This document shows positions 51,686-64,000 of a stretch of DNA of 64,000 nucleotides, one piece after another. The translations under genes and the position numbers were made by a program. Below the pieces are notes generated by a model. The model was not told the DNA's origin, did no database searches, and worked only from the letters and a program-made list of their open reading frames with translations. Source of the DNA: Clostridia bacterium (lineage in GTDB: Bacteria; Bacillota; Clostridia; Oscillospirales; CAG-272); the NCBI GenBank assembly GCA_017416185.1, contig JAFQDF010000012.1:32965-96964 (forward strand), in the 5' to 3' direction. Numbering within the stretch: the stretch's first letter is position 1; the number at the start of each line of letters is the position of its first letter.

Positions 51686-52951
51686 TTAAAACAGTATTAT
51701 TAAGAACTGGGAGACCAGAACCACCGCGATAAGTGCGATAGGATAGGTTGCCGCATAAGCTGCCGCTACGTCCTCCGTGCCTGCAGTACCTATAAGAGTA
51801 CCCAGTGCAGGAGTAGAAGTCATACCGCCGGTAAGTGCGCCTAAGTTGTTGAGAAGACTCAGCTTGAGAACGTACTTAGCAAAGATAAAGCCGATTATCA
51901 AAGGAACGATAGTCATTATAGCTCCGTATACAAAGTACATAGGATCAAAGTTGGCAACGAACTCTGCACCGCCGGGGATACCGGCACCTACAAGGAAGAG
52001 TACCAAGCCTATTTCACGAAGCATCTTAAGTGTAGATTCCTCAGGCATAAGGCTGATTTTGCCGATTCTGCCGAAGTGACCGAATACGAGAGCTGCCAAC
52101 AGACAACCGCCTGTGCTTGTAAGAGAGAAGCATGTTCCGCTGAGACCCGCTGAGGTCATAGGAATCTTAACAGCACCTACCATAACACCAACAAGTGCTG
52201 CTATGGAAAAAGCCGCAAATCCGTAACCGTCGAGTTTAAAGGTACCCTTCTTCTTTTCTTTAACAACGCCACCGCTGACAGCAACGAGCTTCTGTCTTTC
52301 AACTTCCATATCAGCCTTCATAATCTTAGGCATAATCTGTACGAACAGAACAACACCGAGAACGCCGAATATATAAGCTATACCCTGACCTACCGATACG
52401 AGACTTACATATTCTTTTGCAACCGCTTCCTTTGCCGCCGAAAATGCAGGGGTAGATGTAAGTGCACCGGAGAGAAGTCCCGAGATCATAGCCGTGAAGC
52501 CCTCGGAAGTCTCAATGCTGCCACCGTATCCGAAAACGTGTCTACCGAGGAATATACATCCTACAGCCGCTAAACCGCCTGCAAGGATGATTATAAGACC
52601 GAGCAGTGCGTATGATTTGAAGTTTTTCTTCATATTACTGAAGAATTTTGGACCTGCGATGAAACCAACCGATGTAACGAAGAATATTAGTCCCAGCTTC
52701 TCAACAATGCTGAGTGCCTGATCGATGTACATAAGATTTTCTGCTTTACCTTCTACGATAAGTTGACTGGACAGCGGCTCAAAAAACAGAGCACCAAACA
52801 GAAGTGCTATAAAGAACACGCCCGCATCACCGAGAGATATGCCCTTAACGGTTATACGTCCGATAGCATAACCTGCAAACAGTACACCGAAGATACAGAA
52901 TATAAGAAATGTAGTACCTGTAACAGGCAGTACACCGCCAAATAAACTCAT
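51686..52951 (-). CDS. AAE (aspartate:alanine exchanger / YidE-YbjL / SucE-like) family transporter
   Basis: 421 aa and polytopic. The N-terminal pattern FGVLFAGYAIGRITVKGISLGDAGVFFIALLFG is typical of the duplicated Asp-Al_Ex domain. No TrkA-C insert. Confidence 0.6.
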   Translation of the reverse strand: MSLFGGVLPVTGTTFLIFCIFGVLFAGYAIGRITVKGISLGDAGVFFIALLFGALFFEPLSSQLIVEGKAENLMYIDQALSIVEKLGLIFFVTSVGFIAGPKFFSNMKKNFKSYALLGLIIILAGGLAAVGCIFLGRHVFGYGGSIETSEGFTAMISGLLSGALTSTPAFSAAKEAVAKEYVSLVSVGQGIAYIFGVLGVVLFVQIMPKIMKADMEVERQKLVAVSGGVVKEKKKGTFKLDGYGFAAFSIAALVGVMVGAVKIPMTSAGLSGTCFSLTSTGGCLLAALVFGHFGRIGKISLMPEESTLKMLREIGLVLFLVGAGIPGGAEFVANFDPMYFVYGAIMTIVPLIIGFIFAKYVLKLSLLNNLGALTGGMTSTPALGTLIGTAGTEDVAAAYAATYPIALIAVVLVSQFLIILF

Positions 52952-52968
52952 TTTTCTATAAATCTCCT

Positions 52969-54573
52969 TTATGCGTTGACTTTTCTTGTATAGTCGGGAA
53001 GAAGCTTGGGAGATACGGTGTCGGTTGTGATACCTGCATCCTTAAGTTCATTCTCAAATTTTGCAATATGATCAAGGGTAAGTGTACCTACCTCGGTATT
53101 CTTTGCAGCAGAGGCTGCGTTTATACCTGCGTTTCTGCCGAATACGATGATGTCGAGAAGTGAGTTACCCATAAGTCTGTTCTTACCGTGGATACCGCCG
53201 ACAGCCTCACCTGCAACAAAGAGGTTTGTAATATTGGTGGTCATACCGTTAACGTTTATATCAAGACCGCCGTTCTGGTAGTGGAGTGTGGGATAAACAA
53301 GGATAGGCTCTTTTCTTATATCTATACCGTACTTGCCGAACATACGCATCATAGCGGGAATACGTTTTTCTATTGTTCCCTCACCGCCGATCTTCTCGAT
53401 CATAGGAGTATCAAGCCATACGCCGAGGCCGTTGCCTGTTTCAACACCGTTTCCTCGCTCGGAGCATTCACGGATAATAGAAGCCGCGGTTACGTCACGG
53501 GTCTCAAGGGGATGCATAAACACTTCGCCGTTTACGTTAACGAGCTTTGCACCGAGGGAACGAACCTTCTCGGTAACAAGCGCGCCGAAGATCTGCTCGG
53601 GGAATGCAGTACCTGTAGGATGGTACTGAAGGGTCTCTGCATAGAGAAGCTTTGCGCCTGCTCTGTAGCCAAGCACAAGGCCGTCTGCAGTCGCACCGTA
53701 GTGGTTTGAGGTGGGGAAGCCCTGATAGTGCATACGGCCTGCGCCGCCTGTTGCGATAACAACGGTCTTTGCCTTTGCAACGTAGAGCTCCTTTGTTTCC
53801 ATATTCATAAGAACTGCACCGGCTGCATTACCCTTGTCGTCAAGGATAAGCTCGATTGCTGCGGTAAAGTCTACTACGGGGATCTGTCTGTTAAGAACCT
53901 CGTCGCGGAGGGTTCTCATAATTTCGGCACCGGAATAGTCCTTTGCCGCGTGCATACGCTTACGGGAGGTACCGCCGCCGTGGGTGGTAACCATAGTACC
54001 GTCCTCGGTTTTATCAAATTCAACACCAAGCTCGGAGAGCCACTGTATAGCCTCGGGAGCATCACAAACAAGCTTTGCAAGAAGCTCGCGCTTAGCGGCA
54101 AAGTGACCGCCGCCGAAGGCATCTACAAAGTGGATAGCGGGGGAATCGTTAGGCTTATCAGCCGCCTGAATACCGCCCTCTGCCATCATTGTGTTGGCAT
54201 CACCCATACGGAGCTTGGTAACTATCATTACCTTTGCTCCTGCCTCGTGGGCTTCGATCGCCGCAGAGGTTCCTGCACCGCCGCCGCCGATAACTAAAAC
54301 GTCAACGTCATAGTCGGGGGCATTAAGGTCAACAGAATCCGCAGTTATACGGCTGTGAGCCTGAAGGATCTCACCAAGCTCGGTAGGAACCTTGTCACCC
54401 TTGTTGGGACCAACGGTAAGGGTAACGAATTCATCAGCCTTGTAGTCGGGATGGAAGGTTGCAAGGAGGGTCTCCTTCTGCTCTGCTGTCATACGGACAG
54501 GCTCAAGAGCAATATTCTTTTCTCTTGCTTCTTCTACTAAAGCCAGAGATTTCTGAAAGCTTTCTGCGTACAT
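52969..54573 (-). CDS. Fumarate reductase / succinate dehydrogenase-type flavoprotein subunit (soluble)
   Basis: VLVIGGGGAGTSAAIEA FAD fold, QYHPTG, HYQNGG and GKNRLMGNSLLD motifs. It has a ~95-aa N-terminal extension. The catalytic-Arg region reads TEKVRSLGA instead of the canonical RGEGG. Confidence 0.7.
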   Translation of the reverse strand: MYAESFQKSLALVEEAREKNIALEPVRMTAEQKETLLATFHPDYKADEFVTLTVGPNKGDKVPTELGEILQAHSRITADSVDLNAPDYDVDVLVIGGGGAGTSAAIEAHEAGAKVMIVTKLRMGDANTMMAEGGIQAADKPNDSPAIHFVDAFGGGHFAAKRELLAKLVCDAPEAIQWLSELGVEFDKTEDGTMVTTHGGGTSRKRMHAAKDYSGAEIMRTLRDEVLNRQIPVVDFTAAIELILDDKGNAAGAVLMNMETKELYVAKAKTVVIATGGAGRMHYQGFPTSNHYGATADGLVLGYRAGAKLLYAETLQYHPTGTAFPEQIFGALVTEKVRSLGAKLVNVNGEVFMHPLETRDVTAASIIRECSERGNGVETGNGLGVWLDTPMIEKIGGEGTIEKRIPAMMRMFGKYGIDIRKEPILVYPTLHYQNGGLDINVNGMTTNITNLFVAGEAVGGIHGKNRLMGNSLLDIIVFGRNAGINAASAAKNTEVGTLTLDHIAKFENELKDAGITTDTVSPKLLPDYTRKVNA

Positions 54574-63096: not shown

Positions 63097-63117
63097 AATA
63101 TCTATTCCTTTCTGTTA

Positions 63118-64000
63118 TCAGAAATTAACGCTTTTAATTATATTCTTGAGGCAGTCTGCCGAATGATGCAGAGCCTTGATCTCGTCATCGCTCATAGGAA
63201 GGATGACCTTGGAGTGAGCACCCTTCTGGCCTACTATGTTAAGCAGAGAGAGACATACGTCCTCGATACCGTACTCACCGTGAAGCATAGTTGATACGGT
63301 CATAGTGGTATCTATACCGCTGAGCAGACACTTACATACGTGGCATACGGAGATCGAAACTGCATAGAAGGTAGCTCCCTTACGCTGAATAACACTTGCG
63401 CCCGAATTACGCACGTAATCCTCTATATCCGCTTCCTTGAAGGCAGGATAAATAGTACGGCTGGTCAGATTCTTGACGGCATTGCCGAAGTCCTTTGCAG
63501 GTACGTTTGATACGTTTGCAAGAGACCAGGGTATAAAGCTGGAATCTCCATGCTCACCGAGGACATATGCGTGAACATTTTTCTGGCTTATAGAGTAATA
63601 CTCCGCAATTCTCGCACGAAGTCTTGCCGTATCAAGGATAGTACCCGAACCGATAATACGCTCCTCGGGAATACCCGAATACTTATGAAACGCATATGTA
63701 AGAACATCAACGGGATTGCTGACTATTACATATGTAGCATCAGGAGCATACTTCACGATCTCCTTTGATACGCTCTTTATCATATCAACGTTGATCTGAG
63801 CAAGGTCGAGTCTTGACTGACCTGCCTTACGGGGAATGCCGGAGGTTATAACGACAATGTCAGAACCCTTGGCGTCACTGTAGGAGCCTGCGTGTACCGT
63901 CGCAGGATTGCAGAAGGGTATTCCCTGTCTGATATCCAGAGCTTCGCCCAGCGCCTTTTCACCGTTGATGTCGATCATAACGACCTCAGATGCTATACCC
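63118..64000 (-). CDS. mdh: LDH-like malate/lactate dehydrogenase, N-terminus beyond the window edge
   Basis: GEHGDS and NPVDV motifs. The substrate loop reads ITSGIPRKAGQSRLDL, with Arg at the LDH Gln102 position. The reading frame is still open at 64000 and the Rossmann GxGxxG is missing from the window. Confidence 0.7.
   Translation of the reverse strand, partial: GIASEVVMIDINGEKALGEALDIRQGIPFCNPATVHAGSYSDAKGSDIVVITSGIPRKAGQSRLDLAQINVDMIKSVSKEIVKYAPDATYVIVSNPVDVLTYAFHKYSGIPEERIIGSGTILDTARLRARIAEYYSISQKNVHAYVLGEHGDSSFIPWSLANVSNVPAKDFGNAVKNLTSRTIYPAFKEADIEDYVRNSGASVIQRKGATFYAVSISVCHVCKCLLSGIDTTMTVSTMLHGEYGIEDVCLSLLNIVGQKGAHSKVILPMSDDEIKALHHSADCLKNIIKSVNF

What the first reader, a model, noticed from the sequence alone, without database searches (positions are those of the whole stretch)
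51686..64000. Twelve-gene operon joining an Hdr-Flx (bifurcation-type) module to a soluble fumarate reductase, fumarase, malate dehydrogenase and an exporter
**Seen in the sequence.** Twelve minus-strand genes are packed with gaps of about 21 nt or less and six overlaps, including TAATG at 56106. The only terminator-like hairpin lies after 51686. The gene order is:
- an LDH-like MDH
- class II fumarase
- HdrB with two intact CCG motifs
- HdrC
- HdrA
- MvhD/FlxD
- two AsrA/HydB-like Fe-S proteins (FlxC, FlxB)
- an FNR-like FAD/NAD(P)H 2Fe-2S protein (FlxA)
- an SdhB/FrdB-like protein
- an SdhA/FrdA-like flavoprotein (QYHPTG, HYQNGG, NRLMGNSLLD)
- an AAE-family transporter

No cytochrome b, membrane anchor or quinone-interacting subunit is encoded.

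**Established knowledge.**
- FlxABCD-HdrABC of Desulfovibrio is proposed to couple NADH oxidation to reduction of both ferredoxin and a disulfide.
- Methanogen thiol:fumarate reductase TfrAB joins a Frd flavoprotein to a CCG-domain subunit.
- The fumarate/succinate couple is far more positive than NAD+/NADH.

**Inference.** The locus could encode the whole oxaloacetate -> malate -> fumarate -> succinate branch. Its last step would be driven by NADH through HdrA flavin-based bifurcation (2 NADH + fumarate + Fd_ox -> succinate + Fd_red), which would be quinone-independent, energy-conserving fumarate reduction. I know of no biochemically characterised bacterial example, but I cannot check the literature here.
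Basis: partly seen in the sequence, partly recalled or inferred. Interest (0 to 1): 0.85.

Follow-up and report, generated by a model that had tools for sequence, protein, structure and literature searches.

The report
Hdr-Flx-linked soluble fumarate reductase operon
An uncultured gut Clostridia bacterium carries a 12-gene operon for making succinate from oxaloacetate, in which a membrane-free fumarate reductase sits next to an NADH-oxidising, probably electron-bifurcating Hdr-Flx module; this design was already proposed in 2019-2020 for other bacteria and has not, in the papers I could search, been shown biochemically.

Summary
Twelve co-directional minus-strand genes are packed with gaps of 21 nt or less: mdh, fumC, hdrB, hdrC, hdrA, flxD, flxC, flxB, flxA, frdB, frdA and an AAE transporter. 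A divergent gene and a promoter-like site lie upstream, just outside the window. A strong hairpin, and then a separate lysine-riboswitch unit, lie downstream.

The core order hdrBCA-flxDCBA-frdBA is colinear in 57 of 58 related species genomes with enough flanking sequence. The flavoprotein has every fumarate-reductase active-site residue and its model is closest to E. coli FrdA. It lacks the histidine that binds FAD covalently, which suggests it works only in the reducing direction. No membrane anchor is encoded.

The best reading is NADH-driven, quinone-independent fumarate reduction through Hdr-Flx, probably coupled to ferredoxin reduction. Sequence cannot prove that coupling.

The idea is not new. 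The same operon type was described in Pseudoclostridium thermosuccinogenes (preprint 2019; BMC Microbiol 2020). A related tfrAB/flx-hdr cluster was described in tubeworm symbionts (mSphere 2019). I found no biochemical characterisation up to 2026.

Verdict: a new member of a known, predicted kind, of moderate interest. What is new here is its wide spread in gut and rumen Clostridia, including cultivable hosts.

The parts
63118..64000 (-). mdh: malate dehydrogenase of the LDH clade. Its 5' end is cut by the window edge; the full gene is 316 aa and would start at window position 64068.
   Evidence: Pfam Ldh_1_N and Ldh_1_C. The full-length protein comes from L001 and L002. Arg aligns with Gln102 of solved L-LDHs (GIPRKAGQSR against GAAQKPGETR). 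That Arg is kept in 44 of 46 operon-linked homologues. NCBIfam scores it slightly above the L-LDH cutoffs.
61720..63096 (-). fumC: class II fumarate hydratase.
   Evidence: TIGR00979 fumC_II scores 711 bits against a cutoff of 664.75. Pfam Lyase_1 and FumaraseC_C.
60915..61706 (-). hdrB: protein with two CCG domains.
   Evidence: Pfam CCG, two stretches. NCBIfam SdhE anchor of methylmenaquinol:fumarate reductase 155 bits, HdrB 148 bits. Motifs C9..C41C42..C77xxC80 and C152..C192C193..C228xxC231. All ten Cys kept in 57 of 57 relatives. Matches solved HdrB chains, E = 1.8e-37.
60536..60922 (-). hdrC: subunit with two [4Fe-4S] clusters.
   Evidence: TIGR03290 HdrC, E = 3.4e-17. Two CxxCxxCxxxCP motifs.
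58526..60520 (-). hdrA: full-length FAD/Fe-S subunit, the presumed bifurcating flavoprotein.
   Evidence: HdrA2 model 785 bits over residues 3-663. Solved HdrA chain 5odc_A, E = 5.2e-207, over residues 3-661 against 5-648.
58101..58535 (-). flxD: MvhD-like protein.
   Evidence: Pfam FlpD, E = 5.7e-55, full model.
57121..58113 (-). flxC: Fe-S protein.
   Evidence: 4Fe-4S dicluster families. Two CxxCxxCxxxCP motifs.
56106..57128 (-). flxB: Fe-S protein like AsrA or sulfhydrogenase beta.
   Evidence: Pfam Fer4_22. NCBIfam ShyB/HydB/AsrA E-values from 1e-54 to 1e-45. Solved sulfhydrogenase I beta 9nez_B, E = 6.5e-48.
55273..56106 (-). flxA: FAD and NAD(P)H-binding subunit with 2Fe-2S, the presumed NADH entry point.
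   Evidence: Pfam FAD_binding_6, NAD_binding_1 and DHODB_Fe-S_bind. Like sulfhydrogenase gamma and AsrB.
54587..55261 (-). frdB: iron-sulfur subunit with one [2Fe-2S] and two [4Fe-4S] clusters and no CCG domain.
   Evidence: N-terminal match to TfrB (E = 3.5e-10) and dhsB. Invariant C39, C44, C47, C65 plus two CxxCxxCxxxC motifs. A natural FrdB-FrdA fusion exists (P0122).
52969..54573 (-). frdA: soluble fumarate reductase flavoprotein, probably with non-covalent FAD. It has an 88-aa N-terminal extension and no C-terminal Sdh/Frd domain.
   Evidence: Pfam FAD_binding_2 only. Best NCBIfam match is TfrA, 343 bits. H318, T334, E335, R359, H431 and R466 are conserved and Asn127 replaces the FAD-linking His, in 80 of 80 relatives. 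AF2 model pLDDT 87.9. Best Foldseek match is E. coli FrdA 1kf6_A, E = 4.8e-34.
51686..52951 (-). AAE-family transporter with two Asp-Al_Ex repeats, the presumed succinate exporter.
   Evidence: Pfam Asp-Al_Ex, E = 3.3e-53. TIGR01625 scores 121 bits against a cutoff of 72. It follows frdA in 46 of 69 relatives.
51657..51684 (-). Terminator-like hairpin that closes the operon.
   Evidence: 12-bp stem and 4-nt loop, dG -21.1 kcal/mol, z = -6.69. A promoter-like site and a lysine riboswitch belonging to the next gene follow it.

Best explanation
The operon encodes the reductive branch oxaloacetate -> malate -> fumarate -> succinate, plus a succinate exporter.

The last step is carried out by a cytoplasmic, quinone-independent fumarate reductase (FrdA with non-covalent FAD, and FrdB with one 2Fe-2S and two 4Fe-4S clusters). 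This enzyme is wired to a FlxABCD-HdrABC module.

The proposed electron path is as follows.
1. NADH is oxidised at FlxA.
2. Electrons pass through FlxB, FlxC and FlxD to the FAD of HdrA.
3. From there one electron goes down the high-potential branch, HdrC/HdrB -> FrdB -> FrdA-FAD -> fumarate.
4. The other electron goes through the ferredoxin domains of HdrA to ferredoxin.

The overall reaction would be 2 NADH + fumarate + Fd(ox) -> 2 NAD+ + succinate + Fd(red). Reduced ferredoxin could then be used for ion pumping or H2 formation.

Shown here: gene content, cofactor motifs, active-site residues and conserved gene linkage. Inferred: physical complex formation, the electron path and the coupling to ferredoxin.
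For: Operon structure
- Twelve tightly packed genes, each in-window start with a ribosome-binding site.
- The upstream neighbour is divergent, and a promoter-like site (TTGATT, 17 nt, TATAAT, with TG) lies 129 nt before the mdh start codon.
- A hairpin and then an independent riboswitch unit lie downstream.

Conserved linkage
- hdrBCA-flxDCBA-frdBA is colinear in 57 of 58 genomes. fumC lies upstream in 53 of 56, mdh in 44 of 56, and the AAE transporter downstream in 46 of 69.

FrdA as a fumarate reductase
- All catalytic residues are invariant in 80 of 80 relatives.
- The model's 50 best Foldseek matches in the PDB are all Frd, Sdh or flavocytochrome c3 flavoproteins, none of them NadB.
- The nearest relatives outside the clade score best as TfrA or Sdh/Frd.
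- Asn replaces the His that binds FAD covalently. From memory, E. coli FrdA His44 mutants keep fumarate reduction but lose succinate oxidation. That would fit an enzyme that works only in the reducing direction.

Hdr and Flx parts
- HdrA is full length compared with the solved bifurcating HdrA.
- The HdrB CCG cysteines are invariant.

Precedent for direct Hdr-Frd contact
- FrdB, HdrC and HdrB map in order onto TfrB segments 19-94, 134-220 and 258-487. The methanogen enzyme therefore carries this same chain in one polypeptide.
- HdrB scores as well against the SdhE partner of a fumarate reductase as against HdrB.

Modular relatives
- A 55%-identical FrdBA sits directly after HdrA-MvhD-HdrC-HdrB, next to a 2-oxoacid:ferredoxin oxidoreductase.

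Published support
- In the homologous P. thermosuccinogenes operon the genes go up together about 4-fold when CO2 is limiting. Added H2 abolishes succinate formation, as expected if fumarate reduction is tied to ferredoxin reduction (PMC7282089).

Thermodynamics (inference from standard potentials)
- NADH to fumarate gives about -68 kJ/mol. That is enough to drive NADH to ferredoxin, which costs about +20 to +35 kJ/mol.
Against: - No biochemical data exist for any member of this operon type in the papers I could search. Bifurcation is inferred only from the presence of HdrA.
- A close relative (81% identical FrdA, L043) has frdBA next to a CitMHS transporter with no hdr or flx genes within 10 kb.
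- More distant members occur alone or with a NuoF-like subunit. FrdBA therefore does not strictly need Hdr-Flx.
- The role of HdrB is unclear. Its disulfide-reducing cluster motifs are fully kept, which would also fit a thiol/disulfide intermediate.
- FrdB is only weakly similar to canonical SdhB (hhalign probability 46%), and its structure prediction failed.
- I could not check whether menaquinone synthesis is absent or whether Rnf or a hydrogenase is present in this genome.
Confidence: 0.6

Rival explanations
1. It is a plain NADH:fumarate oxidoreductase without bifurcation. Electrons from FlxA reach FrdBA through the Fe-S chain, no ferredoxin is reduced, and the free energy is lost as heat.
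For: Relatives of the FrdBA clade pair with a simple NuoF-like NADH module in Gammaproteobacteria (L084-L086). In the window flxA lies directly next to frdB. From memory, soluble NADH-dependent fumarate reductases are known in Hydrogenobacter thermophilus and Klebsiella; both are also cited in PMC13147460.
Against: A full-length bifurcation-type HdrA, an MvhD-like FlxD and HdrBC are retained, with invariant cofactor cysteines, in 57 of 58 genomes. Seven extra genes are costly for a reaction that a three-subunit enzyme could perform.
Confidence: 0.2
2. There are two separate enzymes joined by a diffusible thiol/disulfide carrier. Flx-Hdr reduces a disulfide, as proposed for DsrC in Desulfovibrio. 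The thiol then drives fumarate reduction, as in methanogen thiol:fumarate reductase.
For: Both CCG motifs of HdrB are fully conserved. The best profile match of FrdA is TfrA. Published models for the symbiont cluster keep a DsrC-like route open (PMC11636981).
Against: FrdB has no CCG domain, the thiol-oxidising part of TfrB (224 aa against the 488-position TfrB model). Thiols could therefore only enter through HdrB itself. No carrier protein or thiol-cofactor gene lies in the operon, in the window or in the 57 colinear relatives.
Confidence: 0.1
3. FrdBA is an independent, ferredoxin- or flavodoxin-dependent soluble fumarate reductase. It is only co-regulated with Flx-Hdr, which acts separately as an NADH:ferredoxin balancing device with some other acceptor.
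For: FrdBA occurs without Hdr-Flx in L043, L087 and L090.
Against: Flx-Hdr would then have no high-potential acceptor encoded nearby. The near-universal colinearity with frdBA (57 of 58) and the Hdr-FrdBA cluster that lacks Flx (L083) point to Hdr and Frd as the constant pair.
Confidence: 0.07
4. The flavoprotein is not a fumarate reductase. It could be an L-aspartate oxidase or another enoate or urocanate-type reductase.
For: The NadB profile also scores well (270 bits against 343 for TfrA). NadB shares the same catalytic residues. Some short relatives score almost equally as NadB and TfrA.
Against: It is always paired with an Fe-S subunit and in one case fused to it. It is linked to fumarase and MDH. 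The closest structures are all Frd, Sdh or flavocytochrome c3. No nadA or nadC gene lies in the operon.
Confidence: 0.03

Closest known systems
'Succinate operon' of Pseudoclostridium (Hungateiclostridium) thermosuccinogenes (Koendjbiharie & van Kranenburg, preprint 2019; PMC7282089)
   Same: The published gene order is the same: fumarate hydratase, seven Flx-Hdr genes, two fumarate reductase genes, and a putative succinate transporter. The hypothesis is the same (NADH -> fumarate + ferredoxin), and RNA-seq shows co-regulation.
   Different: The window's operon also starts with mdh and comes from an uncultured mesophilic gut Clostridia lineage. I compared the two operons only through the published description, because I could not retrieve the P. 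thermosuccinogenes sequences.
tfrAB-korABCD-flxABCD-hdrABC rTCA cluster of Ca. Endoriftia persephone and Thioflavicoccus mobilis (PMC6315080; PMC11636981)
   Same: A soluble two-subunit fumarate reductase is co-located with Flx-Hdr, and a bifurcating complex feeding fumarate reduction has been proposed.
   Different: That cluster serves autotrophic CO2 fixation in Gammaproteobacteria and is interleaved with 2-oxoglutarate:ferredoxin oxidoreductase. Here the setting is fermentative, with mdh, fumC and an exporter.
FlxABCD-HdrABC of Desulfovibrio vulgaris (Ramos et al. 2015, as cited in PMC7282089 and PMC6315080)
   Same: All seven subunit types are present with their expected domains.
   Different: The gene order is reversed (hdrBCA-flxDCBA). 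According to that literature the acceptor in Desulfovibrio is a protein disulfide (DsrC). Here the adjacent candidate acceptor is fumarate reductase.
Thiol:fumarate reductase TfrAB of Methanothermobacter
   Same: FrdA's best profile match is TfrA. FrdB, HdrC and HdrB align in order with the three segments of TfrB.
   Different: TfrB is one 488-aa polypeptide that oxidises CoM-SH and CoB-SH. Here the pieces are separate proteins and are joined to HdrA and an NADH module. TfrA and TfrB scores are far below the equivalog cutoffs (343 against 718; 39 against 385).
MvhAGD-HdrABC of methanogens (solved structures 5ODC, 8RVU)
   Same: HdrA, HdrB and HdrC are homologous over their full length, and an MvhD-like protein is present.
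   Different: There the donor is H2 through a hydrogenase and the acceptor is CoM-S-S-CoB. Here the donor module is FlxABC (NADH) and the presumed acceptor is fumarate.
Quinol:fumarate reductase FrdABCD (E. coli) and related type E enzymes (SdhABE)
   Same: The catalytic flavoprotein has the same fold and active site. In type E enzymes a CCG-domain protein partners SdhAB, and the window's HdrB resembles it.
   Different: There are no membrane anchors and no quinone site. FAD is probably non-covalent (Asn127). FrdB has motifs for two 4Fe-4S clusters instead of one 4Fe-4S and one 3Fe-4S. FrdA has no C-terminal domain but has an N-terminal extension.
Soluble five-subunit NADH-dependent fumarate reductase of Hydrogenobacter thermophilus (Miura et al. 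2008, cited in PMC13147460)
   Same: It is soluble and NADH-dependent, has several subunits and is irreversible.
   Different: Its five genes are scattered in the genome and it is not reported to reduce ferredoxin. I could not read the paper, so its subunits were not compared.

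Membership tests
FlxABCD-HdrABC NADH dehydrogenase/heterodisulfide reductase | FlxA with FAD, NAD(P)H and 2Fe-2S domains | tested here: met
   Pfam FAD_binding_6, NAD_binding_1 and DHODB_Fe-S_bind.
FlxABCD-HdrABC NADH dehydrogenase/heterodisulfide reductase | FlxB and FlxC Fe-S proteins and an MvhD-like FlxD | tested here: met
   Fer4_22 with AsrA/HydB-like matches, dicluster motifs, and FlpD at E = 5.7e-55.
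FlxABCD-HdrABC NADH dehydrogenase/heterodisulfide reductase | HdrA, HdrB (two CCG motifs) and HdrC encoded next to the flx genes | tested here: met
   The arrangement is colinear in 57 of 58 genomes.
FlxABCD-HdrABC NADH dehydrogenase/heterodisulfide reductase | NADH-dependent, ferredoxin-coupled reduction of a high-potential acceptor | not testable with these tools
   This needs enzyme assays.
Flx-Hdr-linked fumarate reductase 'succinate operon' (P. thermosuccinogenes type) | Gene order fumarase, seven hdr/flx genes, two frd genes, transporter | tested here: met
   The window order matches the description in PMC7282089.
Flx-Hdr-linked fumarate reductase 'succinate operon' (P. thermosuccinogenes type) | Sequence orthology to genes CDQ83_RS03315 to CDQ83_RS03365 | not tested
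   The sequences could not be retrieved. The single genome scan kept only the best 80 of at least 591 hits.
Thiol:fumarate reductase TfrAB | TfrA equivalog score | tested here: not met
   343 bits against a cutoff of 718.
Thiol:fumarate reductase TfrAB | TfrB with the Fe-S part fused to a C-terminal CCG domain | tested here: not met
   FrdB is 224 aa with no CCG match, and scores 39 bits against a cutoff of 385.
Quinol:fumarate reductase / succinate:quinone reductase (complex II) | Membrane anchor or cytochrome b subunit(s) | tested here: not met
   None found in the operon. tblastn with the twelve operon proteins shows the same tight colinear gene layout in 57 relatives, leaving no room for an extra gene between hdrB and frdA.
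Quinol:fumarate reductase / succinate:quinone reductase (complex II) | Histidine that binds FAD covalently | tested here: not met
   Asn127 aligns with the His of E. coli SdhA and M. smegmatis Sdh1. Asn is found in 80 of 80 relatives.
Quinol:fumarate reductase / succinate:quinone reductase (complex II) | Catalytic residues: His232, Thr244/Glu245, Arg287, His355 and Arg390 in E. coli FrdA numbering (numbering from memory) | tested here: met
   H318, T334/E335, R359, H431 and R466 are invariant.
L-aspartate oxidase (NadB) | NadB equivalog score and a stand-alone flavoprotein | tested here: not met
   TIGR00551 scores 270 bits against a cutoff of 453. The protein is always paired with FrdB.
AAE (aspartate:alanine exchanger) transporter family | Duplicated Asp-Al_Ex / YidE_YbjL domain | tested here: met
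   Two stretches. TIGR01625 scores 121 bits against a cutoff of 72. Succinate as the substrate is an inference.
LDH-like malate dehydrogenase | Arg at the position equivalent to Gln102 of lactate dehydrogenase | tested here: met
   GIPRKAG aligns with GAAQKPG of solved LDH 4m1q. The Arg is kept in 44 of 46 relatives. Profile scores alone would name it L-LDH.

The most novel reading that the evidence does not exclude
FrdAB, HdrABC and FlxABCD form one soluble nine-subunit complex that uses the HdrA flavin to split electrons from NADH between fumarate and ferredoxin. If so, this quinone-free, energy-conserving fumarate reduction would be the main route to succinate in a large group of gut and rumen Clostridia, including Ruminococcus flavefaciens-type fibre degraders. 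It would be the first demonstrated HdrA-based bifurcation with a carbon-carbon double bond as the high-potential acceptor.
Probability: 0.5. Interest if true: 0.7.

Novelty: new member of a known kind. Interest (0 to 1): 0.45.

Why it matters
Fermentative succinate formation is usually explained by membrane-bound, menaquinone-dependent fumarate respiration. A soluble enzyme that saves the energy as reduced ferredoxin would change ATP and redox budgets for succinate producers.

That would matter for rumen and gut carbon and hydrogen flow, since succinate feeds propionate formation and ferredoxin feeds H2. It would also matter for engineered succinate production.

The hypothesis is about seven years old and, in the papers I could search, untested. 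This work shows that the operon is common and very well conserved in animal and human gut Clostridia. It is also present in isolate-derived genome records (Yeguia hominis NSJ-40 and 'Candidatus Avoscillospira sp. LCP25S3_F1') and in a MAG labelled R. flavefaciens. A direct biochemical test is therefore practical.

Tried and rejected
- Structure prediction of FrdB. The second run gave pLDDT 49.5, too poor for a fold search, so it was dropped.
- Profile comparison of FrdB with a bona fide SdhB segment (the C-terminal part of P0209). Only the 2Fe-2S domain aligned, with 46% probability. This is weak support.
- Source names for distant flavoprotein clusters were mostly empty.
- Miura et al. 2008 is not held in the library, so the Hydrogenobacter subunits were not compared.
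- A Blautia luti paper on succinate and fumarate reductase does not mention Hdr or Flx. A review of energy conservation in fermentation covers only quinone-linked fumarate reduction.
- Phrase searches for 'bifurcating fumarate reductase' found nothing. Searches linking R. flavefaciens fumarate reductase to Hdr or to menaquinone found nothing relevant.
- The consensus promoter scan inside the operon is at chance level (17 found against 18.6 +/- 3.9 expected). It therefore neither supports nor excludes internal promoters.
- Rejected: NadB identity for the flavoprotein, membership of TfrAB, and membership of complex II (see the membership tests).

Full report
**1. Observation.** The region 51686-64000 holds twelve co-directional minus-strand genes.

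Family searches give the following identities:
- an Ldh/Mdh-family protein, cut by the window end
- class II fumarase (TIGR00979, 711 bits against a cutoff of 665)
- a protein with two CCG domains (HdrB)
- HdrC
- a full-length HdrA
- an MvhD/FlpD protein (FlxD)
- two Fe-S proteins (FlxC, and the AsrA/HydB-like FlxB)
- an FNR-like protein with FAD, NAD(P)H and 2Fe-2S domains (FlxA)
- a 224-aa Fe-S protein (FrdB)
- a 534-aa FAD_binding_2 flavoprotein (FrdA)
- an AAE-family transporter

A public contig that differs from the window at 1 of 13,904 positions extends the sequence. It shows that mdh is 316 aa and is the first gene. Upstream lie 561 nt of non-coding DNA and then a divergent ECF-riboflavin gene. 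A promoter-like site (TTGATT, 17 nt, TATAAT, with TG) lies 129 nt before the mdh start codon.

When starts are chosen by their GGAGG-like ribosome-binding sites, the gaps are 21, 13, -8, 15, -10, -13, -8, -1, 11, 13 and 17 nt. That gives five overlaps rather than six, and the TAATG junction is confirmed.

Directly after the transporter stop codon there is a 12-bp hairpin (dG -21.1 kcal/mol, z = -6.7). It is followed by a promoter-like site, a lysine riboswitch (RF00168, 54.9 bits) and an NhaC-type transporter gene. This fixes the 3' end of the operon.

**2. The parts.**

*FrdA.* The sequence aligns with solved SdhA and FrdA chains. The substrate-binding and proton-transfer residues are all in place: H318, T334/E335, R359, H431 and R466. 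Asn127 replaces the histidine that binds FAD covalently. These residues are identical in all 80 related genomes examined.

There is no match to the C-terminal Sdh/Frd flavoprotein domain. Instead an 88-aa N-terminal extension is conserved within the clade.

An AlphaFold model (pLDDT 87.9) is closest to E. coli quinol:fumarate reductase FrdA. Its 50 best PDB matches are all Frd, Sdh or flavocytochrome c3 flavoproteins.

The best profile match is TfrA (343 bits), ahead of SdhA/FrdA (284) and NadB (270), all below equivalog cutoffs. The nearest relatives outside the clade score mostly as TfrA or Sdh/Frd.

*FrdB.* It has invariant cysteines for one 2Fe-2S and two 4Fe-4S clusters. It resembles canonical SdhB only weakly, and its structure prediction failed. 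One natural protein fuses FrdB to FrdA.

*HdrA, HdrB.* HdrA matches the solved bifurcating HdrA over its whole length (E = 5e-207). Both CCG motifs of HdrB are intact and invariant in 57 of 57 relatives.

*Mdh.* It has Arg where lactate dehydrogenases have Gln102. This Arg is kept in 44 of 46 homologues, although profile scores alone would name the protein L-LDH.

*What is absent.* No membrane anchor, cytochrome b or quinone-site subunit is encoded.

**3. Comparative evidence.** A scan of one genome per species found at least 591 genomes with a relative of FrdA.

The best 80 are 75-88% identical. They are gut and rumen Clostridia MAGs labelled Oscillospiraceae, Acutalibacteraceae or Ruminococcus, from ruminants, humans, mouse and chicken. 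They include two isolate-derived records, Yeguia hominis NSJ-40 and 'Candidatus Avoscillospira sp. LCP25S3_F1', and a MAG labelled Ruminococcus flavefaciens.

Among loci with enough flanking sequence:
- 57 of 58 have colinear hdrB-hdrC-hdrA-flxD-flxC-flxB-flxA-frdB-frdA
- 53 of 56 have fumC directly upstream
- 44 of 56 have mdh
- 46 of 69 have the AAE transporter downstream

The single exception (L043) has frdBA next to a CitMHS transporter instead.

More distant members of the same flavoprotein clade occur in other settings:
- after a four-subunit 2-oxoacid:ferredoxin oxidoreductase and HdrA-MvhD-HdrC-HdrB, without Flx
- with a NuoF-like NADH subunit in Gammaproteobacteria
- alone or fused

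FrdBA therefore behaves as a soluble module that can be attached to different electron-input modules. Hdr is the recurrent partner.

**4. Mechanism.**

*Shown:* the genes, the cofactor motifs, the catalytic residues, the tight operon structure and the conserved linkage.

*Inferred:* NADH is oxidised at FlxA. Electrons pass through FlxB, FlxC and FlxD to the HdrA flavin. The high-potential electron then travels through HdrC/HdrB and FrdB to the FrdA flavin and fumarate, and the low-potential electron reduces ferredoxin.

Direct Hdr-to-Frd transfer has precedent. FrdB, HdrC and HdrB align in order with segments 19-94, 134-220 and 258-487 of the single-chain TfrB of methanogen thiol:fumarate reductase. 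HdrB also scores as well against the SdhE partner of methylmenaquinol:fumarate reductase as against HdrB itself.

From standard potentials, NADH to fumarate releases about 68 kJ/mol. This is enough to pay for NADH to ferredoxin.

The missing FAD-linking histidine suggests an enzyme that works only in the reducing direction. I recall this property from E. coli FrdA His44 mutants; it was not tested here.

*Open points:* whether ferredoxin is really reduced, why HdrB keeps all its disulfide-site cysteines, and whether the proteins form one complex.

**5. What is already known.**

Koendjbiharie and colleagues describe a 'succinate operon' in Pseudoclostridium thermosuccinogenes. It contains fumarate hydratase, seven Flx-Hdr genes, two fumarate reductase genes and a putative succinate transporter, in the same order as here. 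It is up-regulated about 4-fold under CO2 limitation. They assume that fumarate reduction is coupled to ferredoxin reduction, citing their 2019 preprint (PMC7282089).

Rubin-Blum et al. 2019 found tfrAB interleaved with korABCD and flxABCD-hdrABC in tubeworm symbionts and Thioflavicoccus mobilis. They proposed a complex that feeds fumarate reductase and 2-oxoglutarate synthase (PMC6315080).

Mitchell et al. 2024 showed co-expression but still list Hdr-Flx as of unknown function and direction (PMC11636981). A 2026 genome survey still says 'it has been suggested' (PMC13147460).

I found no biochemical characterisation. By sequence search, no solved structure of a Flx-Hdr or Flx-Hdr-Frd complex exists.

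I also found no paper that links this operon to R. flavefaciens or to gut Oscillospirales.

**6. Verdict.** The locus is a new member of a known, predicted kind.

What this analysis adds:
- the operon is highly conserved and widespread in gut and rumen Clostridia, including cultivable hosts
- the flavoprotein lacks the covalent-FAD histidine and has a clade-specific N-terminal extension
- FrdB, HdrC and HdrB together correspond to TfrB
- the FrdBA module is also found with other input modules

Interest is moderate. The open biochemical question is real and can now be tested, but a specialist would not be surprised by the gene cluster itself.

Noticed in passing
window 51419-51612 (-), with gene 49756-51369 (-): A lysine riboswitch (RF00168, 54.9 bits) with its own promoter-like site (51642-51614) and a terminator-like stem (51406-51389) precedes a 537-aa Na+/H+-antiporter-family (NhaC/Tet(35)-like) transporter. 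This looks like a lysine-regulated transport unit, separate from the operon.
   Followed up: partly
window 63118-64000 (-); L001 506-1456: By profile scores the operon's first enzyme would be named L-lactate dehydrogenase (342 bits against a cutoff of 339). It carries Arg at the Gln102 specificity position, as does the structural-genomics 'L-LDH' 1Y6J. Automatic annotation probably misnames this malate dehydrogenase.
   Followed up: yes
L083 811-9771: A 55%-identical FrdBA follows HdrA-MvhD-HdrC-HdrB and a four-subunit 2-oxoacid:ferredoxin oxidoreductase. No Flx genes lie on the 10-kb contig. This is an Hdr-Frd unit with a different or unknown electron input.
   Followed up: partly
L084-L086 9366-12891: In marine Gammaproteobacteria MAGs a 48%-identical FrdBA is followed by a NuoF-like NADH/FMN/4Fe-4S subunit. 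This may be a minimal three-subunit NADH:fumarate reductase. A related flavoprotein is also recorded from Prochlorococcus sp. MIT 1201.
   Followed up: no
L043 8079-11605: A Congzhengia sp. MAG has an 81%-identical frdBA directly after a CitMHS-family transporter, with no hdr or flx genes within 10 kb. It is the only exception to the conserved linkage.
   Followed up: partly
L068 and L082: Loci from MAGs labelled Treponema sp. and Bacteroidaceae carry the same colinear operon (L068 lacks only the transporter, where its downstream flank is short), with FrdA 75-79% identical. This could be binning contamination or horizontal transfer. It was not resolved.
   Followed up: no
window 9439-12567 (-), 35034-42158 (+), 42306-46415 (+): There are three very large predicted proteins of 1042, 2374 and 1369 aa. 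The first has a Listeria-Bacteroides repeat match. By eye, the second has many leucine-rich-type repeats and a Gly/Ser-rich linker. They are probably cell-surface proteins.
   Followed up: no
window 12902-34969 (+): Housekeeping clusters: pyrimidine genes (dihydroorotase, carbamoyl-phosphate synthase large subunit, dihydroorotate dehydrogenase), purine genes (AIR synthase, GAR synthetase, FGAM synthase) and formate-tetrahydrofolate ligase. The context is ordinary chromosome.
   Followed up: partly
P0122 / L087 5250-7433: A 727-aa natural fusion of FrdB to FrdA (57% identical over the FrdA part in the A1 alignment) stands alone next to unrelated genes. It supports FrdB and FrdA acting as one functional unit.
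   Followed up: partly
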